The translations under genes were made by a program, and so were the position numbers. From a virus: a stretch of DNA of 40,447 nt. The number at the start of each line of letters is the position of its first letter. Within the stretch, counting starts at the first letter, position 1. The notes under the pieces were generated by a model, which was not told the origin of the DNA, made no database searches, and was given only the letters and a program-made list of their open reading frames with translations. Shown piece by piece: positions 1-40,447 of the stretch. The DNA is taken from IMG/VR virus record IMGVR_UViG_3300050505_000427; one strand, 5' to 3'.

Positions 1-127
1 CTGTCGCGGCCCATGTCGCGGCCCTTGTCGCGTCCCCTGTCGCGGCCCTTGTCGCGGCCTCTGTCGCGGATCTCATGGCGACGTTTATTTTATTTTTTTG
101 TTGCTCTTCTATAAGACAAGTGGCAAG
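1..127. repeat. Terminal direct repeat, exact copy of 40321..40447 (circular-assembly overlap or terminal redundancy)
   Basis: Bases 1-127 are identical letter for letter to the last 127 bases of the window. Confidence 0.97.
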
Positions 128-349
128 AACGCCGGCCATAATAGCCACAAAAGGACTTTGTACGTGTATAATAGTTTTTGGAACGGGTAAATTGGCGGCA
201 GCATATAAACCATCCATAGCTTCCTTAAACTTCACTTTATCATCTTCCGTCATGGCATCCGTATTAAGTATAATCTTAGTCCATTTATCGGCCCATGGCT
301 TTAGTTGGGCTTCATGCTCTGGGGTTAATTCGTATAGTTTTTTCTTCAT
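1..349 (-). CDS. 5' part (N-terminal ~116 aa) of a junction-spanning gene; continues into 39422..40447 (415 aa in total once circularised)
   Basis: The ATG at 349-347 overlaps the stop of the upstream gene (ATGA). The frame stays open down to base 1. The codon phase at base 1 equals the phase at 40321 of ORF 39422..40396. N-terminus: MKKKLYELTPEHEAQLKPWADKWTKIIL... Confidence 0.8.
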   Translation of the reverse strand, partial: MKKKLYELTPEHEAQLKPWADKWTKIILNTDAMTEDDKVKFKEAMDGLYAAANLPVPKTIIHVQSPFVAIMAGVLATCLIEEQQKNKINVAMRSATEAATRAATGDATRAATWAAT

Positions 350-846
350 AATTCCTCCTCCCATTTTCCGGGAGTGCCGTTGATGTAGGCTTGACTTTCG
401 ATGAAAAACTCCGGATGACCAGCTGATAATTCTATGATTAAATCTTCGGGTAAACTTAACCCAGAATAATTGAGCTTCCAAAAAAGTTTTCGATCTTCAA
501 TAAATTGCCGGGGATCACTGTCCACTATATTCCACAATATTCCCCGTTCGGCGCAAAGCACGCGAGGGCCAAAAAATCGGGTAGTAAGGGTCTCTCCGTG
601 GAGGATGCAAAAGTTATCCCATCTGGCCATGGCATTATCTTGTTTCCTGCGGAGGGATGCGGGAGAAAGCTTTCCGCGTTTTGTTGGGCGAGATTCAGGA
701 GGAAGCTTGAGAAAGGCATCAAAAGCCATGTTGATGGCAGCACTGAAACTACAGTCGTTTTCTTTACAGAAGCGATTAATAATTTCGATTCGCTCTGGTG
801 AAAGGCTAACTGACTTGATTTGCTTGAGTTTTTTATCTTTTTCCAT
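346..846 (-). CDS. Hypothetical protein with a possible N-terminal ribbon-helix-helix DNA-binding fold
   Basis: 166-aa ORF. The N-terminus KSVSLSPERIEIINRFCKENDCSFSAAINMAFDAFLK fits a strand-helix-helix pattern. Its stop overlaps the next start (ATGA). Confidence 0.7.
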   Translation of the reverse strand: MEKDKKLKQIKSVSLSPERIEIINRFCKENDCSFSAAINMAFDAFLKLPPESRPTKRGKLSPASLRRKQDNAMARWDNFCILHGETLTTRFFGPRVLCAERGILWNIVDSDPRQFIEDRKLFWKLNYSGLSLPEDLIIELSAGHPEFFIESQAYINGTPGKWEEEL

Positions 847-857
847 CTTAATTATTT

Positions 858-887
858 ATTTTCACATAAGGGGGTAGGCCGTGTCAA
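858..887 (-). promoter_or_regulatory. Candidate sigma70-type promoter for the RHH-like/repeat-protein operon
   Basis: On the minus strand: TTGACA (887-882), 18-nt spacer, GAAAAT (863-858). A T-rich tract lies upstream. The ATG at 846 is 11 nt past the -10 box. Confidence 0.4.
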
Positions 888-1008: not shown

Positions 1009-1437
1009 TTATTCACATTCACGGAGAATGCGAGAGAATAGCTTTCCATGGTCTAACCCCGCGACATGGAGCATCTCGTGGCGAATAGTCCGTTGATAGT
1101 CTTGCTCGCCAAACCAAAAGCATGCTTCAAAAGCAAGAGGGTTAGTGTTTAAGGCAATGATAGGCTTCCCTAGATAGAACGTGACGCCACAGATCTGTAG
1201 CTCATTATTCGGCGGACGAAAAGCAGGAAAGCGATAGAGGTCCTCGTGGAGGACAATCACACTAGAAAGCTCTTTCAGCCTTCGTTGAGCCTCCGCGGGA
1301 ACCAGAGAACAATTCCCGAAATCAAGGATCGCCTCAATAATAGTAGTCTCCTCAAAAGGGGTCGTTCCAAACTGTGGCGGACTGAAGACCAGATATAGCC
1401 AAATGGCTATAGGGCTCAAAAATAGAAAAAGTTTCAT
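1009..1437 (-). CDS. Small secreted metzincin-like zinc metalloprotease (paralog 1)
   Basis: 142 aa with a hydrophobic N-terminus MKLFLFLSPIAIWLYLVF. HEMLHVAGLDH (1048-1080) matches HExxHxxGxxH exactly. Confidence 0.65.
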   Translation of the reverse strand: MKLFLFLSPIAIWLYLVFSPPQFGTTPFEETTIIEAILDFGNCSLVPAEAQRRLKELSSVIVLHEDLYRFPAFRPPNNELQICGVTFYLGKPIIALNTNPLAFEACFWFGEQDYQRTIRHEMLHVAGLDHGKLFSRILRECE

Positions 1438-2870: not shown

Positions 2871-3179
2871 ATGGCAAAGAGGCATTTCTTTCTCTTCCGA
2901 ATCCCTAGCGACCAAGAACAACAATCCTACGGTCTACCCCGCCTATGGTGGCCGTTTCCTGCGGAAACGATAGTGGAGCTTATCGAGAATGATCTTCTTT
3001 ACTACGTAAACTCGCCGACCTATGACCGAGCGCTCTCCAAGAACTCCATAGACACAATCCGTGAGGCTCGCGCTTCACGTCTCTGCAAGTGCTCTGCCAA
3101 ACTCATGACCCGTGCAATGCTTCTAGACGAAAAACCTCACGATAGCTTTTGTCCCCTCACTACCCTAAAGGTTCTCTGA
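2871..3179 (+). CDS. Hypothetical protein
   Basis: An internal ATG 2 nt after the upstream stop was chosen over 2835. TGATG overlap with the next gene. Confidence 0.65.
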   Translation: MAKRHFFLFRIPSDQEQQSYGLPRLWWPFPAETIVELIENDLLYYVNSPTYDRALSKNSIDTIREARASRLCKCSAKLMTRAMLLDEKPHDSFCPLTTLKVL

Positions 3180-3640
3180 TGGAAAAGTTTGTCCACCCCG
3201 AAGGCCCCTCTCCGGCCCTTATCATGCTCATAGGAGAAGCCCCCGGTCGCCTAGAGGCCTCCCTCGGCCGTCCTTTTATAGGCTCATCCGGGCAACTTCT
3301 CCGCCGCGCCCTTTCAGACGCAGGCTTTTCCGATAATGAATGTCTCTTCGCAAATACCATAAACTTCCGCCCGGCCAACAACCGAACCCCCACTCCCGAT
3401 GAAATAGCCCTCTACCAAGACGAGCTAATAGCACACTTCTTACTGGCGCAGCCGCGGATTCTCATTTGCCTAGGGCGCACCGCCAGAGAGGCAATACAAA
3501 AATGGCCGCTTCACTTCCTAAAGATGCCTAAAATAGTCTCCTTCTTTTACCACCCTGCCTACGTCCTCCGCAGGCGCCGCCGAGAGCTAGCCGCCTGGCG
3601 AGCGAGCTTTGCCCGTCTCGCGCAAGAACTCGCCTCATAA
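3179..3640 (+). CDS. Uracil-DNA glycosylase, family 4 (phage-type)
   Basis: GEAPGRLEASLGRPFIGSSGQLL (motif A) and YHPAYVLRR (motif B-like). Start taken at MEKFVHPEG. Confidence 0.85.
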   Translation: MEKFVHPEGPSPALIMLIGEAPGRLEASLGRPFIGSSGQLLRRALSDAGFSDNECLFANTINFRPANNRTPTPDEIALYQDELIAHFLLAQPRILICLGRTAREAIQKWPLHFLKMPKIVSFFYHPAYVLRRRRRELAAWRASFARLAQELAS

Positions 3641-5253: not shown

Positions 5254-5936
5254 GTCTCACCTGCCAAGATAAGGATAAAAACGATTGGCGCTGGTACACG
5301 GATAGCGACGGCGCTAACTACATTAGCGTTACCAGTGTGCTAGCACACATTATCCCAATCGAACTCAAACGATGGTTCATCCGCACCCCCGCAGAGGAAA
5401 TCGATGACAAGTCCTTAACCGCAGCGGACCACGGAACCACAATCGCACGAGCCCTCGAAGATAAATTTAAACATGGCCTAGATAACAAACTCCCCGAGCT
5501 AGACGCTCTTTCCACTCTCTTGGCGGCAAACAATCTAAAGATTGTAGACGTAGAGTTTCCAGTACACAGTTCGCAGTATGGCTTCGCCGGTAGAGTGGAC
5601 ATGCTCCTAGAACATACCGCCTTTGACGGCCGGATCCGTAGGATCCTGGGGGATCTCAAAACTGGCCGCATGCTATCTCCCACCACCGGCTGGCAACTCG
5701 CTGCCTACAGGCAAGCCTACAACGAACTGCACCCTCTCGAACCGGTAGAAGGCTATTGCGCCATCCATCTGCCCCGCCATCAGCCCGAAAAGGGAAAGGT
5801 CTTTCATTACGAGCACCTAGATTTTTGCTTCCATGCATTTTTATCTTGCCTTCAAACTTTCAAAGGCCTATACTGGACTAGACTCTCAAAGCTAGGGTGG
5901 CCATGGCTAGAGAAAAATATATTTGAAACGGAGTAA
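5250..5936 (+). CDS. PD-(D/E)xK nuclease (RecB/Cas4-like phage exonuclease)
   Basis: GRVDML...GDLKTG...QLAAYRQAY fits the D...(D/E)xK...QxxxY motif order. Confidence 0.75.
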   Translation: MSLTCQDKDKNDWRWYTDSDGANYISVTSVLAHIIPIELKRWFIRTPAEEIDDKSLTAADHGTTIARALEDKFKHGLDNKLPELDALSTLLAANNLKIVDVEFPVHSSQYGFAGRVDMLLEHTAFDGRIRRILGDLKTGRMLSPTTGWQLAAYRQAYNELHPLEPVEGYCAIHLPRHQPEKGKVFHYEHLDFCFHAFLSCLQTFKGLYWTRLSKLGWPWLEKNIFETE

Positions 5937-5938
5937 CA

Positions 5939-6655
5939 ATGCCAATTAAACTTGCAGACGTATCTTCCCAGCAACCGCTTCCTCTCCGTCTCCTTCAAAT
6001 CGGAGACACTGGAACCGGCAAAAGCCTTCGCGCAGCCGATGCCACCCGTTGGGGCCGCGTTTACTTCTTTGATTTCGACGGTAAAATGAAAATCCTTGCC
6101 GATAGCCTTCCAGCGGCACAAAAGGCACTCATAGACTTTGACACTTATACCGATGTCGAAAGTGCGATCCGATTCGCAGACTCTCTTTTAAAGGATTGCC
6201 CTTATCAAACCATCGTAGTCGATACCATCAGCGTCTTTAACGAACTAGCCGAAGAACACGCAAAAGTAAAAGGAAAAATCCCAATCGATGGCAAGCTTAG
6301 TTATGAGGGCTGGGATTACATTCGCAATCTCTGCAACGAACTTTACTTCAAACGCCTGCATAAACTTCCCTGTAACGTTATCGTTAACTGCCACGTAGAA
6401 AAAAGTAAAGATCTCGAGGGCAAGGAAGTTCTCGCCGCCGCAGGCCGCGGGAGCTTTATTAACGGTCTCCCACGCCGTATGACCGATGTGCAATATCTTG
6501 CCTTTTCCGGCGGTAAATACGTTGTAAAGGCAAAGAAAAGTGAACGGATAGCTACTAATAGCTTTGTCGCCCCAGAGTTTGTTGACGCTCTCGGCAATCT
6601 AAAAGTCCTTGACCTAAGTGTCTTCGACGGCCGCGTTATGACGGAGAAAAAATAA
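5939..6655 (+). CDS. Sak4-like RecA-fold ATPase (AAA_24 type)
   Basis: Walker A GDTGTGKS and Walker B IVVDTIS. Typical neighbourhood: nuclease upstream, SSB-like downstream. Confidence 0.8.
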   Translation: MPIKLADVSSQQPLPLRLLQIGDTGTGKSLRAADATRWGRVYFFDFDGKMKILADSLPAAQKALIDFDTYTDVESAIRFADSLLKDCPYQTIVVDTISVFNELAEEHAKVKGKIPIDGKLSYEGWDYIRNLCNELYFKRLHKLPCNVIVNCHVEKSKDLEGKEVLAAAGRGSFINGLPRRMTDVQYLAFSGGKYVVKAKKSERIATNSFVAPEFVDALGNLKVLDLSVFDGRVMTEKK

Positions 6656-6753
6656 TGGATTTATTTTTTGAATGTGTACTTACGGCACTTCTTGTAGGTA
6701 TATTGTCCGACAATTTTACCAGTTATTTAATCCGAACAAAGAGAAAGAAATAA
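6655..6753 (+). CDS. Possible 32-aa membrane peptide
   Basis: MDLFFECVLTALLVGILSDNFTSYLIRTKRKK. TAATG overlaps at both ends. Very short. Confidence 0.3.
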   Translation: MDLFFECVLTALLVGILSDNFTSYLIRTKRKK

Positions 6754-6995
6754 TGCCTGATATTACCTTGCGCTCCGGCGAAAATTGTCCCCTCAAAGAC
6801 AGTTGCTATCGCCACGTTGCATATCCTGAAGAGTGGCAATCATATTTTTCAAGTGCTCCCTACAACCACGAAACAAAAATCTGTAATTATTTTTGGGCGC
6901 TCTACGAAAAAACCTTGCAAGTTCCAGAGAAACCTGTTAAGGTTTCAGAGTGCAATAAAGCACACAAAAAGAAAAAAGGAAACAAAAGAAAATGA
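6753..6995 (+). CDS. Hypothetical protein with a Lys-rich tail
   Basis: An internal ATG was chosen over 6672. ATGA overlap with the next gene. Confidence 0.55.
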   Translation: MPDITLRSGENCPLKDSCYRHVAYPEEWQSYFSSAPYNHETKICNYFWALYEKTLQVPEKPVKVSECNKAHKKKKGNKRK

Positions 6996-7531
6996 ACTAC
7001 TCATTCCAAGATCCACAACTCTCGGCTGAAGAGATAGCAGCCCTCTCCGCCGAAGCTCCAAAAAGAGAACGTGAGCTCGCCAAGCCAGGTCGCTACGCGA
7101 TGACCGTAAAACGCATTAGCGCGCGCCAGATGGGCTCCACTGGAAAATTCAAAGCAGAAATTTTTCTCGTCCACGCAGATGCAGAAAATCGTGGTCTAAC
7201 GGGCGCCTCACTCGTCCTATTCCGCGCTAAGGATAGCACTGTCAAGAACAGTAGTGTGACCCAGCGCTTCCTCAAAGTACTAGGCCAATCAGCCGGTATT
7301 AACGATGAAACTGCGCTTCACACCATGACTTGGGCGCCAGACACATCCGCTGAAGCCGACGAGTATGGCAGCGTTCCAGCCGCAATTGGCATTAACGTGG
7401 GCGGAAACTATGAAGCCCTTAATCTAGAGGGCGTAACCGTTCTCGCAGACGTTGATGTTGAGACCTTTACCCGTCGCGATGGTTCAGACGGCGAAAAGAA
7501 TATCATTAAGCGTATTAGCACAGTCCAGTAA
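6992..7531 (+). CDS. Putative ssDNA-binding protein (DUF669-like)
   Basis: 179 aa directly downstream of the Sak4-like ATPase. The N-terminal pattern PGRYAMTVKRISARQMGSTGKFKAEIFLV resembles DUF669, from memory. Confidence 0.5.
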   Translation: MNYSFQDPQLSAEEIAALSAEAPKRERELAKPGRYAMTVKRISARQMGSTGKFKAEIFLVHADAENRGLTGASLVLFRAKDSTVKNSSVTQRFLKVLGQSAGINDETALHTMTWAPDTSAEADEYGSVPAAIGINVGGNYEALNLEGVTVLADVDVETFTRRDGSDGEKNIIKRISTVQ

Positions 7532-7563
7532 TTGCTCCGCAATTACCCTGTGCTTTCCCCCGA

Positions 7564-7596
7564 GGACACCCGGTTAATCCCCCTTACCGGGTGTCC
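7564..7596 (+). terminator. 10-bp perfect stem-loop between the SSB-like and polymerase genes
   Basis: GGACACCCGG (7564-7573) pairs with CCGGGTGTCC (7587-7596) around a 13-nt loop. There is no clear U-tract, so terminator function is uncertain. Confidence 0.35.
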
Positions 7597-7626
7597 CTCC
7601 CCTAGAGGGGCATAAAAAGAGACCAA

Positions 7627-9945
7627 GTGTTCTATATAGTAGCCCCTAACACTCATCTCCTAACCCCCTGGCTCCGCGCAGCCGGCCTTCGCGACAGCGA
7701 CTTTAGCTTTACCACCAGCCCACAAAGCGGCCACATAAATCTAATCGTAGACCGCGATAAAGATCACTGCTACCTCTTAGAACAACCCTTCAGCACTATC
7801 CTTATCCACTGCCCCGAACCGAGTACCCTCTTCCAAGACCCAATTAACGAACTTTTCATCCAGACCGCAATCGCTAAGGCTAAGGCTATCGGTTTAAAAG
7901 AGCCCTACACTCGTTTCCAAGAAACCACAAAGGTACTGCGTACCTTTGATGACCTAGAAAATCTCTTCGCGATCTTGCAATCGCAGTCTAATATAAGCCT
8001 AGATATAGAACTCTATGAAGAAGAGATCAGTGCCATAGGCTTTGCCTACCGCAGCGGAAGTGAAACATATCACGGCTACTCTATGCCCCTCATGATCGGA
8101 ACGGAGAGTGCATGGTCCCCCGAAGAAGAAGAGTTTTTTTGGACACAGCTCGCGCTTCTCTTCGCAAAACCTAATTGTACCTGGATATTTCAAAACTATA
8201 TCTTCGATTGCCTGTGGCTAGCACGGCTAGGGCTTACCCCAAATGGAGACATTATCGATACAATGATAATGGCACATCTATGGAATCCAGAAGCCCCTAA
8301 GTCGCTTCGCGACTTAGCCCGCTTATACTTGTTCTGCGATCCCTGGAAAGATCAAAAAAGCTGGGTCGCAACAGATAGCCTCTTCGAGTACAACGCTAAA
8401 GACGCTACCCGCACCCTTGCCATACGCGATGTACTAGACACCCTTCTTGCCGAAGACTCTCGCCGGGCCTTTTACTACGGCCACCTCATGCCCCTCAGCA
8501 AAGAAGTCCTCAATCTCTGCATTCGCGGCCTTGTAGTAGACCACCAGGCCCTCGCCGAAATGAAAGCTTCGCTTATCGCCCAGGTAAGAGAAACCTTTTT
8601 CAAAATGCAGGCTATCTACACACCCCAGCTTCCTCCAAAAGTCCAGCATTTGCTTCGCAAAGGAAAGATCCGCCCGGGTAGTAAATACTTTACAAAAGAC
8701 CTAGAGGGGAACTTTATTGCCTGTCGCATTTCCCCCACCCTAACATCTATTAAAAAATTAGGCTTTCCTGTCTACGAGCGCATAGAAAAACCTCAGATTT
8801 TTCGCCCAAGCTCTACCAAACAGGTACAAGCCCTTCTCAAACAGGCCGGCATTCGTTTGCCTCGCAAACGCAGTAAAGCGGGCAAAGAAGGTGTCGAGAC
8901 TACCGACAAAAAAGCACTCAAGAAGATTCAAGCCAAGCAAGGCAACAAGAGCGCGCTTCCCGGAGAGCTTCTCGCCTTCCGTTCCGCAGCAAAGCTCCTT
9001 ACTAGCTATGCCTACGTAAAGCTAGACTCAGATGGTCGCCTCCATACCAGCATTAACCTTACAGGCGGCAAGGATACAAGCGAAGGAGCCGATGAGAAGG
9101 ATAGCGGCGGTGGCGGAACCGTTACGAGCCGTTTCTCTAGCCAAGCCACTCCCTGGGGTACTGGCTTTAACATTCAAAATATTCCAAAAAGCTTTCGCCA
9201 CATCATCATTCCCAGTCACCCGGACTGGGTGCTCTTAAGCCTTGACTTCAAAGCCGCAGACCCTCACGTAGTCGCGTGGCTCAGTGGAGAAGACAAGATG
9301 CTAACCGCTATGGACCAGCCTGGCGGCGACTTGCATAGCCTAACGGGAAGCGCAATCGCAGGCTTTAACATCCGCGAAACAGAGGGCTTTGACGCGGACA
9401 CTAACCCCTTTCGCAAAAAAGGCAAAGCCGCCAACAACGGCCTTAACTATGGCATGCAACCTAAAAAGTTTGCAGTCGAGGCCGGGATGGACCTTACCGA
9501 AGCCGAGAGAATCTTTGATCTTTATTTCAAGCTCTACCCGGGCATAAAAGACTGGCACAAACGCACGCAAGCAGAACTTATCAAGACAAAAACTATCTCG
9601 ACCCCCCAAGGCCGCAAAAGGCGGTTCTATGGAAACTACTATGACTACTACAGCCGAATAAAGCTTGTCCAAGAAGCTCTAGCCTATGTCCCTCCCACAG
9701 TAGTAGCAGACTGCGTTAACATGCTTTGGCTACGCCTCGTAGCCGCCGAAAATGTCCCGGAGTTCAACGTCCTTAATCAGATCCATGATGCCTTGCTCCT
9801 AGAGTGTCATCGCGAGAGCATACCAGAACTGAAAGTCCTAATTAATAAAACGATATCTGAAATAACCTTCCCCTGCGGGCGCTATGAACGCTGCGCTTTC
9901 ACTGTCGATATAAAAACCGGCCCAAATTGGAGAGATATTAAATGA
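7627..9945 (+). CDS. Family A DNA polymerase with an N-terminal 3'-5' exonuclease domain
   Basis: Exo motifs SLDIELYEEE, NYIFDCLWL and YNAKDA. Pol motif A LLSLDFKAADPHV, motif B RKKGKAANNGLNYGM, motif C NQIHDALLLE. GTG start. Confidence 0.92.
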   Translation: MFYIVAPNTHLLTPWLRAAGLRDSDFSFTTSPQSGHINLIVDRDKDHCYLLEQPFSTILIHCPEPSTLFQDPINELFIQTAIAKAKAIGLKEPYTRFQETTKVLRTFDDLENLFAILQSQSNISLDIELYEEEISAIGFAYRSGSETYHGYSMPLMIGTESAWSPEEEEFFWTQLALLFAKPNCTWIFQNYIFDCLWLARLGLTPNGDIIDTMIMAHLWNPEAPKSLRDLARLYLFCDPWKDQKSWVATDSLFEYNAKDATRTLAIRDVLDTLLAEDSRRAFYYGHLMPLSKEVLNLCIRGLVVDHQALAEMKASLIAQVRETFFKMQAIYTPQLPPKVQHLLRKGKIRPGSKYFTKDLEGNFIACRISPTLTSIKKLGFPVYERIEKPQIFRPSSTKQVQALLKQAGIRLPRKRSKAGKEGVETTDKKALKKIQAKQGNKSALPGELLAFRSAAKLLTSYAYVKLDSDGRLHTSINLTGGKDTSEGADEKDSGGGGTVTSRFSSQATPWGTGFNIQNIPKSFRHIIIPSHPDWVLLSLDFKAADPHVVAWLSGEDKMLTAMDQPGGDLHSLTGSAIAGFNIRETEGFDADTNPFRKKGKAANNGLNYGMQPKKFAVEAGMDLTEAERIFDLYFKLYPGIKDWHKRTQAELIKTKTISTPQGRKRRFYGNYYDYYSRIKLVQEALAYVPPTVVADCVNMLWLRLVAAENVPEFNVLNQIHDALLLECHRESIPELKVLINKTISEITFPCGRYERCAFTVDIKTGPNWRDIK

Positions 9946-16909: not shown

Positions 16910-19147
16910 GTGGCAACCAATGTTTTTAAGCAGATTAATCTAGACCTGCTAACCCCAACTACCGTTGGCGATGACCTCGGCAATCACACTGCTACGCAAG
17001 ACTTCCATCTAGACGGCAACGCGGTACGGACAGACGAAGCTGATGGCGCTAGCGCAATCGGGTTCCAATTCCAGACTGATAATGCCCTCGTGACAGACGG
17101 TAGCATCTTGCTACAGCTTAATAACATGAGTGATCTTTTTCTACAGGCTCGCCGTGGCAGCAGCGACGCGACCTCTTATTGGAGCGCCGATGACAACATA
17201 ATTGAGCTTGCTAGTAAAACCGGGACTATTCAGGGCTTTATTATCCCAACCGATGACCAGGGATTAATAATCGGGAACATCGCAGATCTCAATCTCACGT
17301 TTGCTAATGCAAGCGCGGATCAAAGTTACTATGGCGCCTTTACCTCTCAGCCTTTTGTATCCCAGCTAGATATTACCGCTAATAAAAGTGGCGTATCCGC
17401 GGGAATGCACGTCGATGTAAGTGGAACCTACGGACAGGTCAGTCTCACCGGAGATCAGCTCCAAGTAGGATTCAATATCGTAACACTGCAACCAACGGGC
17501 ACGACTGCTGATAAAGATCGCCTTCAGGATTTAGTGTCTGCCGTGCACTCTTCTGGTGGCGGTATCATTCAACTCTCGCAAGGTCTTTATGATTTAGACG
17601 ATGGGGTTGTTTTTAGCAGCATCAATAACGTAACGATTCGCGGCGCAGGACGCGCCACACGCCTTACCGCTACCGGCGGTGGAACCGGGGCTATGATCGA
17701 GTTTGCCGGTACTAGCGACCTTGTCGACCAGCCTTTAAATAATTTTAGTCGCGGCGCGACCAGCGTGTTTACCACGACAGCAGCTGCAGCGGGACAAGTA
17801 GGCACCGGCGATACTCTTTTTATTGTAGGTACCGATAGTGTGACAGGGTATAAAGAAGGCTTTACGGCTCGTGCATCGGCTAATGGTAATGGGGGGACGG
17901 GCGAGATCACTTTGGTAAACCCCGCTCCGATGGGCTTTACCGGAGGATTGCTAGATAATCCTAGTGCAAACAAATTTAATCGCTTAGAGAATTTACAGCT
18001 AGAGCCCGCAGGCACCTACGAACAAATTATCTTAGCGCGCTACAGCGATCATCTAGAGATTAGGGATCTCAATATTGAAGGCGAAGACGTGGCTCTCACA
18101 GGGACCGCTACTGATGGCATTAGCATGGTAGCTACTTTTGACACTCTCATAGAACGCGTTACCATTTCGAATCTAGACGGCTGTCGTGCGATAGCTTGCC
18201 GAGCGGCGATGACTCCTATTGTTCGTGGATGCAAGATCTATTCTAACAACAATAGCAGCACAGGCACGACCCCACAGGCCGCGATTCTCTTAGGTGTCAA
18301 TGCATATGGAGGTCTTGTAGAAGGAAACTTTATCCAAGGCGGCAAAGGAGATGGTGCAATCGTACTGGATGCCGGCGCGCACAATGTAACGCGCACTAGG
18401 GTTAGAGACAATGAAATTCTCTATCGCCCCACCGGACAGGGCATTCAAGTTAACGGCGGCTACCAAAATAGCGTTGAAGGCAACGACATTCGCAGTTGTA
18501 TCAGCGGGTCAAGCGGCTTCGGAATCTTGGCGAACATGAAAGATGGTTCTGCCTGCGATAACACAATTGTGGATTGCTCATGGGGAATTGTCAGCAATAT
18601 CTCGGGTGGAAATAACGTCCGCATCAATGATAATACATTAGAGCGTATTGACCAGCAAGGAATTTATTTGAACAATGGAGCGGATAGCGCAATCTGTGGA
18701 AACGATATCCGAACAGTAAACAACAGCGATGCTATCGGTATCGATAATAGCCAACGGGTAAGTTGTGTTGGTAACACCGTTAACTTTGCTCCACGCGGCA
18801 TTCGCGTTTATGATGATAGCGATGACGTGACCGTAAACGGTAACACGGTATTTGATACCACAAGCGGCATATGGGTTGATGGTAGCGCGACGGTCCCGAC
18901 TAACGTTGTAATCGTGGGTAACCTCGTGAGAACGGCTACCACCGGCATTCGCCTGAGCGCCTGTCAGGACTGCGCTGTGACTAGCAATCGCGTAGACAAC
19001 GCCACTACTGGCATTAAACTGGAAGACAATACCGGAGTTTGCGATAACAACCTTGTCGACCATAATAATATTCGTAGTAACATTACGCCTCTATCCGATA
19101 CCTCTACCGGCGTGAATAATCAGAAGCTTAGCAACCTAGTTGCCTAG
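16910..19147 (+). CDS. Tailspike/depolymerase with a right-handed parallel beta-helix (pectate-lyase fold)
   Basis: GGGIIQLSQGLYDLDDGVVFSSINNVTIRGAG is followed by many GN-I/V-containing repeats (NTIVDCSWGIVSN, GNDIRT, GNTVN, GNLVR, SNRVDN). GTG start after GGAG. Confidence 0.8.
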   Translation: MATNVFKQINLDLLTPTTVGDDLGNHTATQDFHLDGNAVRTDEADGASAIGFQFQTDNALVTDGSILLQLNNMSDLFLQARRGSSDATSYWSADDNIIELASKTGTIQGFIIPTDDQGLIIGNIADLNLTFANASADQSYYGAFTSQPFVSQLDITANKSGVSAGMHVDVSGTYGQVSLTGDQLQVGFNIVTLQPTGTTADKDRLQDLVSAVHSSGGGIIQLSQGLYDLDDGVVFSSINNVTIRGAGRATRLTATGGGTGAMIEFAGTSDLVDQPLNNFSRGATSVFTTTAAAAGQVGTGDTLFIVGTDSVTGYKEGFTARASANGNGGTGEITLVNPAPMGFTGGLLDNPSANKFNRLENLQLEPAGTYEQIILARYSDHLEIRDLNIEGEDVALTGTATDGISMVATFDTLIERVTISNLDGCRAIACRAAMTPIVRGCKIYSNNNSSTGTTPQAAILLGVNAYGGLVEGNFIQGGKGDGAIVLDAGAHNVTRTRVRDNEILYRPTGQGIQVNGGYQNSVEGNDIRSCISGSSGFGILANMKDGSACDNTIVDCSWGIVSNISGGNNVRINDNTLERIDQQGIYLNNGADSAICGNDIRTVNNSDAIGIDNSQRVSCVGNTVNFAPRGIRVYDDSDDVTVNGNTVFDTTSGIWVDGSATVPTNVVIVGNLVRTATTGIRLSACQDCAVTSNRVDNATTGIKLEDNTGVCDNNLVDHNNIRSNITPLSDTSTGVNNQKLSNLVA

Positions 19148-37229: not shown

Positions 37230-37460
37230 CTATCTTTCCCTTCTCGTGAGCTTACGAAGAGCGGCGTCAAATTTTCTGCGGGCTTGACGGGCTAGGTCTT
37301 GCTCATATCTAAATTGATCGCAGATGTGGTCCCAGTCGTCGTTAACGATGGGAGAGAGGGAAAAGAACTTTTCATCGCAGTTGGTGCAGATGAGGGCATA
37401 GTTGCTTTCATAACATAGAAAGCGAAGCAAAGTGCCGTAAGCACAGGTATGGCATCTCAT
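37230..37460 (-). CDS. Zinc-ribbon protein
   Basis: 76 aa with CHTC...CTNC. ATGA overlap with the upstream metzincin gene. Confidence 0.6.
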   Translation of the reverse strand: MRCHTCAYGTLLRFLCYESNYALICTNCDEKFFSLSPIVNDDWDHICDQFRYEQDLARQARRKFDAALRKLTRRER

Positions 37461-37924
37461 CTGAAAGTCTCGCGGGCAGAGTTTCCGGCGCCGGGTCCGA
37501 GACAGGTGTCGAGAATGCCGGCCATTTCGGGGCCGTGGGCGAAGCCTGCGATGTGGAGAAGTTCATGCATCATGACTGCATTTTTGGGGCAGACAATGTC
37601 TGCTTTTGTCTCGTCTAGTTCAATGGTATTGCTGAAGGGATGGGCCATGGCGCAGACCTTTTTATTTTCCTCTGTTTTTGGGAGAGGTTGGAAAGAGGGA
37701 GGGGCTATTACCATATGGGTAGTTAGATAGTCATGGTTGATGGGCCAGCCGGCGCGGAAGAACTCACAGGATGTTAATTTAAGACTCATGCGGACGACTC
37801 GATCTTTAATGATCTTGGTTTGTTCTTGAGACCAGCCTTCAATTTCTAGGCTGGGCCCTACTTGAGCCACGGCAGGGTTAAAAATTAAACAGCCTAGTAA
37901 AACTAACATAAGTAGAGAGCTCAT
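37457..37924 (-). CDS. Small secreted or lipoprotein metzincin-like zinc metalloprotease (paralog 2)
   Basis: 155 aa with signal MSSLLMLVLLGC (lipobox-like). CAMAHPFSNTIELDE. HELLHIAGFAH (37535-37567) matches HExxHxxGxxH. Confidence 0.7.
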   Translation of the reverse strand: MSSLLMLVLLGCLIFNPAVAQVGPSLEIEGWSQEQTKIIKDRVVRMSLKLTSCEFFRAGWPINHDYLTTHMVIAPPSFQPLPKTEENKKVCAMAHPFSNTIELDETKADIVCPKNAVMMHELLHIAGFAHGPEMAGILDTCLGPGAGNSARETFR

Positions 37925-37980: not shown

Positions 37981-38532
37981 TTATTTCTTCTCCAACAAAA
38001 CTCTATCATCCGTTCCGACGCCCGTTAGGACGTAGCAGACTACAAACATGAAGTTACAGAGGGCGTGGGCCTCATGAGAGAGGCCGCTTTCGGGGTCAGT
38101 GGTTTCGCCATTTGCTATGGCGAGCAAATGGCGGCGCCAAGAGTTAAGCACTCTAGAGAAGGCCATGCCGTTAGTATAATTTAGGCTAGCATACTTTTTT
38201 GCACCGAAAGAAAGAACCGGAGAAATAATTGAAGCAATTAGTTTAGCAGAAGTTTGCCAAACTTGTTGTAATGAACTAACATCATCATAATAAAACCATT
38301 GATTAAGCGCATTATCCGCGCCGTCAAGCAATTGACGCGGATTAATGATTCCTTGTCTCCAAACCTCCGGGTGAATATGGTGCAGCTCGGGCTTGCCGGT
38401 GTCGTAGCGGAGAGCTTCAATGGTATGGGCATGGCTTCCTAACGGAGGAATTTGTTGAGTATGACAGCCGCTGTCCTCACATTCTTCTATGTAATATCCT
38501 TTGTCTCCCGTATTTCCATACCATACACACAT
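37981..38532 (-). CDS. MazZ-like dATP/dGTP diphosphohydrolase-domain protein
   Basis: YDTGKPELHHIHP...FGAKKYASLNY...RRHLLAIANGETTDPESGLSHEAHALCNFMFVV matches the remembered family pattern D.GK...Ga.KY...RH...GE..D.ESGL.H..HA.CN. Confidence 0.65.
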   Translation of the reverse strand: MCVWYGNTGDKGYYIEECEDSGCHTQQIPPLGSHAHTIEALRYDTGKPELHHIHPEVWRQGIINPRQLLDGADNALNQWFYYDDVSSLQQVWQTSAKLIASIISPVLSFGAKKYASLNYTNGMAFSRVLNSWRRHLLAIANGETTDPESGLSHEAHALCNFMFVVCYVLTGVGTDDRVLLEKK

Positions 38533-38777: not shown

Positions 38778-39070
38778 AAATTCTCCTCTATCCAGTCGGC
38801 TATTTGTGAGAACGACTGGCTGTTATCATAATATAACCCCGTTCCATCATTTTGGCAAATTAATTTTTGTTGCTCTTTGTTGGAAATTTTACAAGTTTTA
38901 AGCATAGAAGACGTTAACTCTGTATCTCGGGGATAAATGGTTTGCCTAGTAATCTCACAAAGAACTCCTAAGCAACAGTAGTAATGATTCTCAAGAAGTT
39001 GCCCCTGGCCCTGCTTAAAATCCCCGCTCCGTAGTGCGTCTACCCACATCTGTTTTATTTCTGGGTGCAT
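38774..39070 (-). CDS. Conserved phage hypothetical protein
   Basis: 98 aa. The pattern WVDALRSGDFKQGQGQL...YCCLGVLCE is recognisable from other phage proteins of unknown function. Confidence 0.65.
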   Translation of the reverse strand: MHPEIKQMWVDALRSGDFKQGQGQLLENHYYCCLGVLCEITRQTIYPRDTELTSSMLKTCKISNKEQQKLICQNDGTGLYYDNSQSFSQIADWIEENL

Positions 39071-39408
39071 TAGTCAAGCACTGTTCGGCTACGGCGAGTC
39101 AGCAGATCGCGTTCACGTTGTGGGTTAATCTCGTAGACTCCCGGGGGGATAATGGCGACTTCGTGGCCACTATGGGCTTCGGTGCCATGAACAAGCTGCG
39201 TTGTCTCTGTTACGCGAAGTAAGTTGCCCGCTGCGAGGGCGTTGCCGAATAACTCAAACTTTCCGCCCATGATTGTATGAGGATTCCCGGTTTCGCCGGT
39301 TGCGACTATGCCGGTTAGGTTTGCCGAGGCCTCTGGCCGGCGGTCTTCGGCCAATTCACGAATGATGACTTCTCCTTGAACGATTACTTTTAGTTTCTTT
39401 GGTCTCAT
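39070..39408 (-). CDS. Conserved small beta-barrel (cupin-like) phage protein
   Basis: Start taken at MRPKKLKVIVQGEV after AAGGAG. GETGNPHTI...LVHGTEAHSGHEVAIIPPGVYEINPQRE. Confidence 0.65.
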   Translation of the reverse strand: MRPKKLKVIVQGEVIIRELAEDRRPEASANLTGIVATGETGNPHTIMGGKFELFGNALAAGNLLRVTETTQLVHGTEAHSGHEVAIIPPGVYEINPQRERDLLTRRSRTVLD

Positions 39409-39421
39409 TGGTTTCTCCTTT

Positions 39422-40447
39422 TTAGCTTTCGCTAATGATTTCATATTTACTAGTGTCTATTCCCATGGTTGCGAGGCGCACTAGCTCTGCGTTATCGCAG
39501 TCTGTTGGCACAAGGCCGAACACGTTTTGAAACTCTTCGGGCGTACGTGGTACACCTAAAAATGTTTCCTGTTCTTGGAGAGTATCATGCCAGGTGACTT
39601 TTAGCAAGCGAATATTTTCATTGTCGTTAGGTAGACGCACTTCCCAAAGCTCGATTGGCTTTGTGCTGCCGCGCGTCGAAGGTGCGCTTGATATAAATTT
39701 GCCATTTAGCGCGCGCACTAGATCATCAAAGCCGCCGCGCATGTTACGAAGTACGGCCATGCGAACATCATTATTTGGCTCTGCTAGCAATTCTTTAGCA
39801 TTTATGGGTTTTTCAATATATTTAGCAGGTACGAAAGTACCATTGAGTGCGTAAAGGGCACTGCCATCGCGCCATTTTTTAAAGGGACCCGTGGTACAGT
39901 GGGGTCTATTTTGAGCGTTCATTTTGATATACTCTGGACGGTCAGATACTATAACAAAGTCTCGATGCATAAAACGAGCACCCCCATATATTTCTGCATT
40001 TTTATAATGACGCCATTTCTCATAAATTGGAAGGTTTAGACCCACTATATCATCGAAAAAAGAATAAAAAGAGGTCGACTGAGACCATTCATTTCCAAGA
40101 TGTAAGAAATCCCATACAGAAGAAAACTTTTGTAATACATTTTTAAAATTTTTACCTTCGAAAGATTCAAAAATATGTTTAAGATCCTCATTATTTAAAA
40201 AACCAGTATAAAAGGTATTTAAGTCTGTCGCGGCCCTTGTCGCGTCCCCTGTCGCGTCCCCTGTCGCGGCCCCTGTCGCGGCCCATGTCGCGTCCCTTGT
40301 CGCGGCCTCTGTCGCGGCCTCTGTCGCGGCCCATGTCGCGGCCCTTGTCGCGTCCCCTGTCGCGGCCCTTGTCGCGGCCTCTGTCGCGGATCTCATGGCG
40401 ACGTTTATTTTATTTTTTTGTTGCTCTTCTATAAGACAAGTGGCAAG
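39422..40447 (-). CDS. 3' part of the junction-spanning gene: tetrapeptide-repeat segment plus a C-terminal domain resembling DUF6745
   Basis: The ORF has no stop between 40396 and the window end. It contains the repeat ATEAATRAATGDATRAATWAAT... The C-terminal motif FVIVSDRP...RPHCTTGPFKKWRDGSALYALNGTFVP matches my memory of the DUF6745 family. Confidence 0.85.
   Translation of the reverse strand, partial: LATCLIEEQQKNKINVAMRSATEAATRAATGDATRAATWAATEAATEAATRDATWAATGAATGDATGDATRAATDLNTFYTGFLNNEDLKHIFESFEGKNFKNVLQKFSSVWDFLHLGNEWSQSTSFYSFFDDIVGLNLPIYEKWRHYKNAEIYGGARFMHRDFVIVSDRPEYIKMNAQNRPHCTTGPFKKWRDGSALYALNGTFVPAKYIEKPINAKELLAEPNNDVRMAVLRNMRGGFDDLVRALNGKFISSAPSTRGSTKPIELWEVRLPNDNENIRLLKVTWHDTLQEQETFLGVPRTPEEFQNVFGLVPTDCDNAELVRLATMGIDTSKYEIISES
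40226..40393. repeat. 12-bp tandem array, 13 units plus 1 degenerate unit, consensus TGTCGCG[G/T]CC[C/T][T/C/A]
   Basis: Units counted directly from the sequence. Units 9-14 are also present at 2..73 because of the terminal duplication. Confidence 0.95.
40321..40447. repeat. Terminal direct repeat, exact copy of 1..127
   Basis: Identical to 1-127. It covers the last 6 units of the 12-bp array plus 54 bp of unique sequence. Confidence 0.97.

What the first reader, a model, noticed from the sequence alone, without database searches (positions are those of the whole stretch)
39422..40447. Junction-spanning 415-aa accessory protein: N-domain, variable tetrapeptide repeat and a DUF6745-like C-domain, coupled to an RHH-like gene
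Once the window is circularised, a single ORF runs from the ATG at 349 through base 1 (equivalent to 40321) to the stop at 39422. It has three parts. The N-terminal part is about 91 aa (LTPEHEAQLKPWADKW...NLPVPKTIIHVQSPF). The middle part is about 14 x 4 aa of repeats. The C-terminal part is about 270 aa and contains FVIVSDRP...GPFKKWRDGSALYALNGTFVP. From memory, this three-part layout matches bacterial DUF6745-family proteins of unknown function, some of which carry SQLx-type repeats with one variable residue in the middle. The gene overlaps the stop of an RHH-like gene (ATGA). It is followed 14 nt later by a conserved cupin-like gene. Together these look like a small accessory operon with its own TTGACA promoter at 882-887. 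No function is known for this architecture, particularly in a phage.
Basis: partly seen in the sequence, partly recalled or inferred. Interest (0 to 1): 0.7.

Follow-up and report, generated by a model that had tools for sequence, protein, structure and literature searches.

The report
Hypervariable tetrapeptide-repeat phage protein with partner
A phage gene spanning the circular junction encodes a DUF6745 protein whose middle is a fast-changing array of four-amino-acid repeats, always paired with a small histidine-rich protein; it resembles, without being related to, a mycobacteriophage protein that tunes counter-defence by changing its repeat number.

Summary
The window is a circular ~40.3-kb phage contig with a 127-bp terminal overlap. 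A 415-aa ORF crosses the junction. An independent contig carries the same gene uninterrupted in its middle.

The protein has three parts: an N-domain, 13.75 ATxx tetrapeptide units, and a C-domain. The units are 12 bp and 75% GC, in a gene that is otherwise 40% GC. The C-domain passes the Pfam DUF6745 threshold narrowly, and relatives pass it strongly.

The array is hypervariable. The sister genome is nearly identical over 21 kb and differs structurally only by 9 units. Many homologues share identical flanks but have different arrays. Variation sits on three non-synonymous nucleotides of the unit, while synonymous sites stay almost fixed.

The conserved partner is not the "RHH-like" gene, which has no support and is not conserved. 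It is the small downstream protein, adjacent in 33 of 39 loci, and Foldseek does not find it cupin-like.

Other DUF6745 phage proteins carry QLxx, SLxS, AVxx or SVxx arrays. Microcystis phage Ma-LMM01 has the gene pair with no array.

The closest functional precedent is mycobacteriophage Tweety gp54. Its array grammar is the same, its scaffold is unrelated, and its repeat number tunes counter-defence. I infer a tunable arms-race module, most likely counter-defence, by analogy only.

The parts
70..349 (-). 5' part of the DUF6745-family gene. It encodes the N-terminal domain (aa 1 to about 93), including the hydrophobic helix at aa 66-85. The ATG is at 349-347.
   Evidence: Translation. AF2 pLDDT is 85-98 over aa 1-80. 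The domain is conserved in all 120 aligned homologues.
1..69 (-). Promoter-proximal 5.75 units of the 12-bp tetrapeptide array. This is the same DNA as 40321-40389.
   Evidence: TRF. The terminal overlap is exact.
40225..40389 (-). The complete hypervariable array as laid out at the window's right end: 13.75 units of GCG ACA NRG GMC, encoding AT-[ERGW]-[AD] (aa 95-150). GC is 0.75, against 0.40 for the rest of the gene.
   Evidence: The sister contig L081 has 9 fewer units.
39422..40224 (-). 3' part of the gene. It encodes the C-terminal domain (aa 150-415) and the stop codon. Pfam DUF6745 matches aa 233-351.
   Evidence: AF2 pLDDT is mostly above 85. phmmer finds 1,978 cluster representatives at E<=1e-3.
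40321..40447 (.). Terminal redundancy of the circular assembly, identical to 1-127.
39070..39408 (-). Conserved partner gene. It encodes a 112-aa all-beta protein of phrog_27831. Family motifs are QGD, GE(v)TGHxH, HEEH, PxGxY, QREY and an invariant C-terminal Asp. An alternative upstream start lies at 39444.
   Evidence: It lies on the same strand within 300 nt of the DUF6745 gene in 33 of 39 loci with both flanks. It is also paired in Ma-LMM01, prophiGD102-1 and cta39025.
346..846 (-). Upstream 166-aa ORF whose stop overlaps the start of the DUF6745 gene (ATGA). It is unverified and not conserved next to homologues.
858..887 (-). Sigma-70-like promoter match: TTGACA, 18 nt, TG-n-GAAAAT, upstream of the 166-aa ORF.
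   Evidence: It matches 10 of 12 positions, but the number of such sites in the region is not above the shuffled expectation.

Best explanation
Shown: the gene encodes a member of a large, mainly phage-borne DUF6745 family. In this family a conserved N-terminal domain and a conserved C-terminal domain flank a tetrapeptide array encoded by 12-bp tandem repeats. The gene forms a two-gene module with a small histidine-rich all-beta protein.

Shown: the array gains, loses and reshuffles whole in-frame units far faster than the rest of the genome changes. Within units, variation is confined to codon 3 (positions 1-2) and codon 4 (position 2). The result is a two-residue variable patch that recurs every four residues.

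Inferred: unit changes arise by replication slippage or unequal recombination.

Inferred: the array is a tuning or specificity element that lets the phage population quickly re-match a rapidly evolving target. The most likely target is a host- or prophage-encoded defence component, which would make the module a tunable counter-defence. This follows the demonstrated behaviour of mycobacteriophage Tweety gp54, where repeat-number changes retune the protein against the Phrann gp29/gp30 and MichelleMyBell prophage defences.

Inferred: the conserved N and C parts, together with the partner protein, carry the core biochemical activity. That activity does not need the array, because Ma-LMM01 gp174/gp175 has none.
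For: ORF and circular junction.

Family membership and size: DUF6745 membership. More than 200 close homologues share the same N-domain, array and C-domain layout. There are 1,978 representatives at 50% identity. IMG/VR holds 279 viral contigs with relatives, against 41 loci among 185,579 species genomes.

Hypervariability:
- L081 is 100% identical over 10.3 kb and has 4 mismatches over 10.9 kb. Its only structural difference from the window is a 108-bp, 9-unit indel in the array.
- Many groups of homologues have 100% identical N and C domains but arrays that differ in unit number and order.
- 32 of the 37 loci whose gene is cut by a contig end start inside an array.

Selection signature over 35 arrays:
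- Mean entropy is 1.53, 1.19 and 1.04 bits at unit nucleotides 7, 8 and 11.
- Mean entropy is only 0.13-0.35 bits at the four third-codon positions.
- Ala and Thr codons differ between lineages, so 'AT' is conserved at the protein level rather than the DNA level.
- Lys is nearly absent at the variable position (12 of 2,873 units) although it is one mutational step from Arg or Glu.

Shared array grammar: two constant residues, then an NGG/NAG codon, then a two-state residue, with third codon positions fixed. This holds for the window, prophiGD102-1 gp38, cta39025 and Tweety gp54.

Tweety gp54 precedent: PMC2884959 for anatomy; PMC9262239 and PMC8549241 for escape mutants.

Partner coupling.

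Genomic setting: the module lies in the early/replication region of a phage with no integrase or reverse transcriptase detected.
Against: - No experiment exists on any DUF6745 protein, and no paper in the library mentions DUF6745.
- The flanking domains are not homologous to Tweety gp54. hhalign gives probability 3.4%, and the two fall in different PHROGs, 3416 and 31813. The functional inference is therefore by analogy only.
- Neither protein matches a PADLOC model. PADLOC covers defence systems, not anti-defence proteins, so this is weak evidence.
- The array is predicted only with low confidence, as helix with pLDDT 42-57. It could be a flexible linker.
- Part of the apparent array diversity in metagenome contigs could come from mis-assembly of repeats.
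- Ma-LMM01 has the pair without an array, so the core function is array-independent and remains unknown.
Confidence: 0.45

Rival explanations
1. The module is a phage- or prophage-encoded defence or superinfection-exclusion system. The hypervariable array would be the sensor surface that recognises proteins of competing phages. The DUF6745 core, with or without the His-rich partner, would be the effector.
For: Some relatives sit next to integrases in temperate elements or in prophages of isolates. Examples are L128, L130, cta39025, prophiGD102-1, Novosphingobium mangrovi and Hansschlegelia zhihuaiae. Diversifying selection on a repeat array is typical of immune sensors. A tight two-gene module is typical of defence systems.
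Against: No PADLOC model matches. The window phage and Ma-LMM01 show no integrase. The module lies among early and replication genes that are expressed in lytic growth. The only experimental precedent for such arrays is a counter-defence protein.
Confidence: 0.15
2. The array is a functionally neutral, slippage-prone flexible linker inserted in a permissive loop. The protein and its partner have a fixed role, for example in replication or nucleotide metabolism, and array variation is mutational noise.
For: Ma-LMM01 gp174 has no array. Some family members have decayed, non-periodic middle regions. AF2 confidence in the array is low. Unit indels are always in frame, so they are tolerated. The neighbours are DNA polymerase, UDG and nucleotide-metabolism genes.
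Against: Within arrays, variation is almost entirely non-synonymous and restricted to 3 of 12 nucleotides, while four-fold degenerate sites stay fixed. The constant residues are kept with different codons in different lineages. The residue alphabet is biased towards R, W, E, G, D and Y, and Lys is avoided. The same grammar recurs on an unrelated scaffold where repeat number has a phenotype.
Confidence: 0.2
3. The 12-bp repeats act at the DNA or RNA level, for example as protein-binding iterons, a recombination hot spot or a structured RNA. The encoded tetrapeptides would be incidental.
For: The array is a sharp GC spike, 0.75 against 0.40 for the rest of the gene. It has invariant third-codon positions within an array, and it lies near replication genes.
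Against: Across lineages the nucleotide unit differs (GCG ACA, GCC ACC, GCA ACT, and entirely different QL, SL, AV and SV units), while the protein periodicity and its position between the two domains are conserved. The array is always in frame within the same ORF.
Confidence: 0.05
4. The array length and the apparent hypervariability are artefacts of short-read assembly of tandem repeats.
For: The window's own contig ends inside the array. 32 of 37 truncated loci start inside an array. The P0002 array equals the P0001 array with an internal deletion between identical ATGDATRAAT segments, which is the outcome a repeat collapse would produce.
Against: Complete genomes of cultured phages or prophages carry long arrays. 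These include Tweety (48 units), Che8 (26) and PMC (15), and prophiGD102-1 gp38 with about 47 units. The L081 array is shorter than its assembler's k-mer of 141 and is therefore spanned. Assembly breaks at arrays are themselves what population heterogeneity would produce.
Confidence: 0.1

Closest known systems
Mycobacteriophage Tweety gp54 (also Che8 gp57 and PMC gp51; phrog_3416): a tetrapeptide-repeat 'tunable' counter-defence protein
   Same: - Conserved N- and C-terminal regions flank 15-48 tetrapeptide units.
- The unit is 12 bp and forms a GC spike.
- The first two residues are invariant. Residue 3 uses NGG/NAG codons (G, W, Q there; G, W, R, E here). Residue 4 has two states.
- Third codon positions are invariant.
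- Closely related phages differ in unit number and composition.
- The gene lies among early, non-structural genes.
- Escape mutants with more or fewer units retune it against the Phrann gp29/gp30 and MichelleMyBell defences.
   Different: - The flanking domains are not homologous: hhalign probability 3.4%, no Pfam domain, and a different PHROG.
- The constant dipeptide is AA there and AT here.
- The C-terminal part of gp54 is only about 45 aa.
- No phrog_27831-like partner lies next to gp54.
- Function has been tested only for gp54.
Pfam DUF6745 (PF20530) / phrog_31813. Examples: Microcystis phage Ma-LMM01 gp174, prophiGD102-1 gp38, Caudoviricetes cta39025 UOF77368
   Same: - The N-domain and C-domain are homologous.
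- The same small partner gene lies next door.
- The module sits in the early/replication region.
   Different: - Array type differs: QL[GRW][GD], SL[GREW]S, AV[RDGS][GD] and SV[RWG][EG], against AT[ERGW][AD] here.
- Ma-LMM01 gp174 has a non-repetitive linker in place of an array.
- None of these proteins has a known function.
Bordetella phage BPP-1/BMP-1 Bbp36 variable region 2 (VR2)
   Same: It is a variable-number in-frame tandem repeat inside an early, non-structural phage gene, and the copy number differs between isolates.
   Different: The unit is 24 bp, an octapeptide GTATAG[YE][RS]. The scaffold is unrelated and the function is unknown.
Diversity-generating retroelements (DGRs)
   Same: They produce targeted non-synonymous hypervariation at defined codon positions of a phage gene.
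   Different: A DGR needs a reverse transcriptase and a template repeat, and it mutates adenines in a single variable repeat. Here there is no RT in the genome. Variation is carried by tandem units that change in number and order.

Membership tests
Pfam DUF6745 (PF20530) | The whole-protein score against the Pfam HMM reaches the gathering threshold of 27 bits. | tested here: met
   The window protein scores 28.9 bits, E = 8.5e-7, over aa 233-351 and profile positions 43-154 of 206. This is marginal. Its homologues P0006, P0079 and P0016 score 186.9, 64.9 and 45.1 bits. The precomputed Pfam annotation is PF20530 for nearly all hits.
Pfam DUF6745 (PF20530) | Structural similarity to another annotated DUF6745 protein. 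| tested here: met
   Foldseek against BFVD matches the Microcystis phage LMM01 DUF6745 protein at E = 2.5e-13, TM 0.52-0.56.
Tweety gp54-type tetrapeptide-repeat counter-defence proteins (phrog_3416) | A central array of tetrapeptide units encoded by a 12-bp GC-rich tandem repeat, with the first two residues invariant. | tested here: met
   There are 13.75 units, with AT invariant and GC 0.75. In gp54 the invariant pair is AA.
Tweety gp54-type tetrapeptide-repeat counter-defence proteins (phrog_3416) | [quoted passage not shown] | tested here: met
   Searches show the same pattern in the window, in 35 related arrays and in gp54.
Tweety gp54-type tetrapeptide-repeat counter-defence proteins (phrog_3416) | N- and C-terminal domains homologous to those of gp54. 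| tested here: not met
   hhalign of A1 against gp54 gives probability 3.4%. gp54 belongs to phrog_3416 and the DUF6745 family to phrog_31813.
Tweety gp54-type tetrapeptide-repeat counter-defence proteins (phrog_3416) | Changes in repeat number alter sensitivity to a prophage-encoded defence. | not testable with these tools
   This needs phage genetics. It has been shown only for Tweety (PMC9262239, PMC8549241).
Ribbon-helix-helix regulators (upstream ORF 346-846) | A match to an RHH/CopG/Arc/MetJ family profile or structure. | tested here: not met
   There is no Pfam hit at E<=1, no PHROG, NCBIfam or PADLOC hit, no PDB hit at E<=10, and no GenBank-phage hit. The structure was not predicted.
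Cupin superfamily (downstream partner 39070-39408) | A cupin beta-barrel fold or a cupin profile match. | tested here: not met
   There is no Pfam hit. The AF2 model is confident (pLDDT 87.6), yet the best Foldseek PDB hit has E = 0.34 and TM about 0.2 and is not a cupin. A profile search against PDB sequences finds nothing. The conserved His/Glu motifs are only reminiscent of a cupin.
Diversity-generating retroelement target | A nearby reverse transcriptase and a template repeat. | tested here: not met
   No RT was found among the ORFs scanned with Pfam or PHROGs, or in the precomputed Pfam annotation of the sister contig. The variable sequence is a tandem array, not a VR/TR pair.

The most novel reading that the evidence does not exclude
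The DUF6745 protein and its His-rich partner form a widespread two-gene phage counter-defence module, with roughly 2,000 clusters at 50% identity. Hosts span Proteobacteria, Actinobacteria and Cyanobacteria. Its specificity would be reprogrammed by a protein-level contingency locus, a tetrapeptide array with a fixed grammar: two constant residues, an NGG/NAG-coded variable residue, and a binary residue. The same grammar occurs on at least two unrelated scaffolds, DUF6745 and Tweety gp54. That would make such arrays a general and previously unrecognised hypervariation device of phages, comparable in role to DGRs.
Probability: 0.3. Interest if true: 0.8.

Novelty: new variant of a known kind. 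Interest (0 to 1): 0.66.

Why it matters
Tweety gp54 has stood as a single curiosity: a phage protein that retunes itself against prophage defences by changing its tetrapeptide-repeat number, by an unknown mechanism. This finding shows the same array grammar in a much larger, unrelated and unstudied family with a strictly conserved partner gene. The family is DUF6745, with roughly 2,000 clusters at 50% identity, 279 IMG/VR contigs and hosts from several phyla. Natural populations of this family show exactly the array turnover expected of an arms-race element.

It also provides tractable models: prophiGD102-1 gp37/gp38 in mycobacteria and Ma-LMM01 gp175/gp174 in Microcystis. With these, one could work out how such arrays function and what they target.

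There is a practical point too. These arrays are systematic break points of phage metagenome assemblies, so many "linear" ~40-kb contigs that end in them are really circular genomes.

Tried and rejected
- A single-sequence scan of IMG/VR with P0001 found nothing. An alignment-based scan was needed.
- Foldseek of the full-length model and of the partner model against the PDB gave no significant match. Sequence and profile searches against the PDB found nothing.
- PADLOC gave no hits. The only NCBIfam hits were low-complexity SD-repeat noise for P0006.
- Neighbour conservation: only the small partner is conserved. The RHH-like ORF and all other window neighbours are not.
- Homology between Tweety gp54 and the DUF6745 scaffold was rejected.
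- BPP-1 Bbp36 VR2 was checked as a possible relative. It has a different scaffold and an octapeptide unit.
- A DGR was rejected because there is no RT.
- Transmembrane anchoring by the hydrophobic helix at aa 66-85 was considered. AF2 places the helix confidently within the fold, and the stretch is only about 14 hydrophobic residues long. This was not tested with a TM predictor.
- A one-unit-per-nucleotide recognition code and G-quadruplex-driven instability were considered. Both were dropped as unsupported, since many arrays use NNC codons without G-runs.
- The Dedrick 2017 primary paper could not be retrieved. The functional statements about gp54 therefore rest on two reviews by the same laboratory.
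Full report
**1. The observation**

The first 127 bases of the window are identical to the last 127, so the window is a circular assembly of 40,320 bp. On the minus strand an ORF starts at the ATG at 349-347, preceded by GGAGGAGG. It runs through base 1 and 40320 to the stop at 39424-39422 and encodes 415 aa.

Exactly this protein is already in the public protein collection as P0001, from a JGI contig of 40,410 bp. An independent ENA contig (L081, k141_5402263, 40,353 bp) carries the gene uninterrupted in mid-contig with the same neighbours. The junction-spanning ORF is therefore real.

TRF finds 13.8 copies of a 12-bp unit at 40225-40389, score 239. In frame the unit is GCG ACA NRG GMC, which encodes Ala-Thr-[E/R/G/W]-[A/D]. 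The array is 75% GC, the rest of the gene is 40%, and the genome is 48.5%.

The contig ends inside the array, and the array (165 bp) is longer than typical short reads. The exact unit number is therefore uncertain.

**2. The genome**

PHROG and Pfam scans identify the following:
- a PolA-type DNA polymerase, a primase, and an AAA_24 protein;
- UDG, a YfbR-like protein, and a dATP/dGTP-diphosphohydrolase-N domain protein;
- the large terminase subunit, portal and major head protein;
- a beta-helix tailspike-like protein and an M15 peptidase.

No integrase or reverse transcriptase was found. The closest cultured relative of the DNA polymerase is only 25% identical. This is an uncultivated ~40-kb phage. 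The gene of interest lies in a leftward cluster of small accessory genes next to the replication module.

**3. The protein family**

The window protein passes the Pfam DUF6745 gathering threshold only narrowly, at 28.9 bits against 27. Its homologues pass strongly; P0006 scores 186.9 bits.

A word-indexed search found more than 200 relatives. All those inspected have the same plan:
- an N-domain of about 85 aa that ends in a small-residue hydrophobic helix;
- an ATxx array of 4 to 83 units;
- a C-domain of about 250 aa.

An exhaustive phmmer search with the C-domain alone found 1,978 cluster representatives at 50% identity with E<=1e-3, and 515 with E<=1e-10.

Relatives are encoded on 279 IMG/VR viral contigs. 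Among the genomes of 185,579 bacterial and archaeal species there are only 41 loci. Many of those are ~40-kb MAG contigs that look like phage. The family is mainly phage-borne.

AlphaFold2 gives a confident model for the N and C parts (mean pLDDT 83.6, pTM 0.76). The array is predicted as low-confidence helix with pLDDT 42-57. The fold has no significant match in the PDB, where the best E is 1.1. It does match the DUF6745 protein of Microcystis phage Ma-LMM01 in BFVD at E = 2.5e-13.

**4. The array is hypervariable and under selection**

(a) L081 is the same phage from another sample. It is 100% identical over 10,336 bp and has 4 mismatches over 10,860 bp. The only structural difference is a 108-bp, 9-unit indel in the array.

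(b) Among 120 homologues there are many groups whose N- and C-domains are 100% identical while their arrays differ in unit number and order. One group is P0034, P0039, P0048, P0082 and P0105, with 24, 27, 23, 13 and 10 units. Others are P0016/P0019/P0042, P0018/P0057/P0067 and P0043/P0050/P0078.

(c) Of the 37 IMG/VR loci whose gene is cut by a contig end, 32 start inside an array. The window's own break is therefore the usual behaviour of assemblers at this locus.

(d) Over 35 arrays, mean entropy per unit position is 1.53, 1.19 and 1.04 bits at nucleotides 7, 8 and 11. These are codon 3 positions 1-2 and codon 4 position 2. Mean entropy is only 0.13-0.35 bits at the four third-codon positions. 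Between lineages, however, the Ala and Thr codons differ (GCG, GCC, GCA, GCT; ACA, ACG, ACC, ACT). The constant 'AT' is therefore conserved as protein, units within an array are kept homogeneous, and the variation that persists is almost entirely amino-acid-changing.

(e) Pooled over 2,873 units, residue 3 is R 28%, W 13%, E 13%, D 11%, G 8% and Y 6%. Lys appears only 12 times, although it is one mutational step from R or E. Residue 4 is A 56% and D 31%. Arrays are mildly acidic, at -0.29 charge per unit.

**5. The real partner gene**

Clustering the neighbours of 74 loci gave a single conserved neighbour, the ~105-115-aa protein encoded just downstream in the window at 39070-39408.

With a profile HMM, 33 of 39 loci that have both flanks carry the partner within 300 nt on the same strand, and 37 of 39 carry it within 1.5 kb. 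Across all 74 loci it is adjacent in 52, downstream in 36 and upstream in 16.

From the partner's side, four of four sampled contigs have a DUF6745-family gene at +1. Two carry long AV[RDGS][GD] arrays, one has only about three such units, and the fourth was identified from its precomputed Pfam annotation alone.

In GenBank phages the partner occurs in 11 records. The two records that matched the window protein are both among them, and in each the partner lies next to the DUF6745 gene: cta39025, where it is immediately downstream and unannotated, and prophiGD102-1, gp37 next to gp38. The other nine are Ma-LMM01 and its relatives. Adjacency was checked only in Ma-LMM01, where gp175 lies next to gp174.

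The partner belongs to phrog_27831 and has no Pfam family. More than 2,165 relatives were found. It has invariant Gly, Glu, Thr and His residues (GE-TG-H-x-H and H-E-E-H) and an invariant C-terminal Asp. AF2 predicts an 11-strand all-beta protein with pLDDT 87.6 and no PDB match. 'Cupin-like' is therefore not established.

The upstream 'RHH-like' ORF has no hit in any library and is not found next to homologues. Its ATGA overlap with the DUF6745 gene is a local feature.

**6. Other array types on the same scaffold**

- prophiGD102-1 gp38 carries about 47 QL[GRW][GD] units.
- cta39025 carries about 29 SL[GREW]S units.
- Other members carry AV[RDGS][GD], SV[RWG][EG] or SA-type arrays, or long decayed period-4 regions.
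- Ma-LMM01 gp174 has a non-repetitive linker.

The array is therefore an insertion at the junction between the N and C parts of a scaffold whose core function, with its partner, does not require it.

**7. The closest known system**

The literature library has no paper that mentions DUF6745. It does describe mycobacteriophage Tweety gp54 (PMC2884959), which has these features:
- conserved N- and C-termini flanking 48 tetrapeptide units (26 in Che8 gp57, 15 in PMC gp51);
- a 12-bp unit that forms a GC spike;
- the first two residues invariant (Ala-Ala);
- variation at unit positions 7, 8, 10 and 11, with third codon positions invariant.

The authors read this as selection for variation. Later work, summarised in PMC9262239 and PMC8549241, showed that defence-escape mutants of Tweety map to gene 54. 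These mutants have more or fewer repeats, and this 'tunes' a counter-defence against the Phrann gp29/gp30 or MichelleMyBell prophage defences. The mechanism is unknown.

I re-derived the gp54 array from the GenBank record. Its codon 3 is GGG, TGG or CAG and its codon 4 is AGC or TAC. The NGG/NAG-plus-binary grammar is the same as in the window (AGG, GGG, GAG, TGG; GCC or GAC), in prophiGD102-1 gp38 (GGG, CGG, TGG; GAC or GGC) and in cta39025 (GGG, GAG, TGG, AGG).

The gp54 flanks are not homologous to the DUF6745 scaffold. hhalign gives probability 3.4%, gp54 has no Pfam domain, and it falls in phrog_3416 rather than phrog_31813. The resemblance is one of architecture and array grammar, not of family membership.

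**8. Most likely mechanism**

Shown:
- a two-gene phage module;
- an in-frame 12-bp array between two conserved parts;
- unit gain, loss and reshuffling far faster than point substitution elsewhere in the genome;
- amino-acid-changing variation focused on two residues per unit.

Inferred:
- Unit turnover arises by slippage or unequal recombination.
- The array is a tuning or specificity element in an arms race.
- The target is most likely a host or prophage defence, making the module a counter-defence. This rests on the Tweety gp54 precedent and on the module's position among early genes of a phage without lysogeny functions.

I put about 0.45 on this arms-race, counter-defence reading.

Rivals:
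- a defence or exclusion module with the array as sensor (0.15);
- a neutral linker in a protein with a fixed replication-associated role (0.2);
- a DNA-level role for the repeats (0.05);
- largely an assembly artefact (0.1 for the hypervariability, not for the existence of the array).

**9. Novelty**

The DUF6745 family is catalogued but uncharacterised. Tetrapeptide arrays of this grammar are known from one small mycobacteriophage family. I found no description in the searched literature of three points:
- their presence in a large unrelated family across phages of several bacterial phyla;
- the strictly conserved His-rich partner;
- the population-level turnover shown here.

I classify the finding as a new variant of a known kind, with interest 0.66.

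Noticed in passing
window 37457-37924 (-) and 1009-1437 (-): Two small ORFs of 155 and 142 aa. Each has an N-terminal hydrophobic, signal-like segment and a metzincin-type HExxHxxGxxH motif (HELLHIAGFAH and HEMLHVAGLDH). They flank the accessory cluster. Neither has a Pfam or PHROG hit.
   Followed up: partly
window 37981-38532 (-); also the UDG and YfbR-like genes, called at L081 6710-7171 and 7481-8008 (probably window ORFs 3149-3640 and 2342-2869): A cluster of nucleotide-pool genes. One protein has the PF18909 dATP/dGTP diphosphohydrolase N-terminal domain (E = 1.5e-19). The others are a uracil-DNA glycosylase and an HD-type YfbR-like nucleotidase. Together they hint at dNTP-pool manipulation or modified DNA.
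   Followed up: no
L059/L060 about 5532-9285: Next to the DUF6745 gene lie several 60-75-aa ORFs made almost entirely of NATx tetrapeptide units, for example MLNKTKDATYNATWNATWNATYNATENATS... They may be array fragments, pseudogenes or mis-assembly.
   Followed up: no
IMG/VR loci L005-L079; JBMOOF010000003.1 (L101 and L116): Contigs systematically end inside these arrays: 32 of 37 truncated loci start within one. One 39.7-kb MAG contig has the N-terminal part of the gene at one end and the C-terminal part at the other. That is the same circular-genome break as in this window.
   Followed up: yes
MW202476.1 47974-48288 (inside L125): The partner gene is present but unannotated in the GenBank record of Caudoviricetes sp. 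cta39025. It lies directly downstream of the DUF6745 gene.
   Followed up: partly
window 16910-19147 (+): A 745-aa protein with right-handed beta-helix and NosD domains. It is probably a tailspike or depolymerase.
   Followed up: no
window 39070-39408 (-) and 39422-349 (-): Both proteins of the window's pair are divergent members of their families. The partner has Asn in place of the first, nearly invariant His of the GHxH motif. The DUF6745 protein has Val at position 239, where at least 90% of relatives have Cys. This suggests the two genes have diverged together.
   Followed up: partly
L131 10777-11706 (Bordetella phage BPP-1 bbp36): The VR2 region of Bbp36 is a GTATAG[YE][RS] octapeptide array in an early gene. 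It is another phage protein with a variable in-frame array on an unrelated scaffold.
   Followed up: partly
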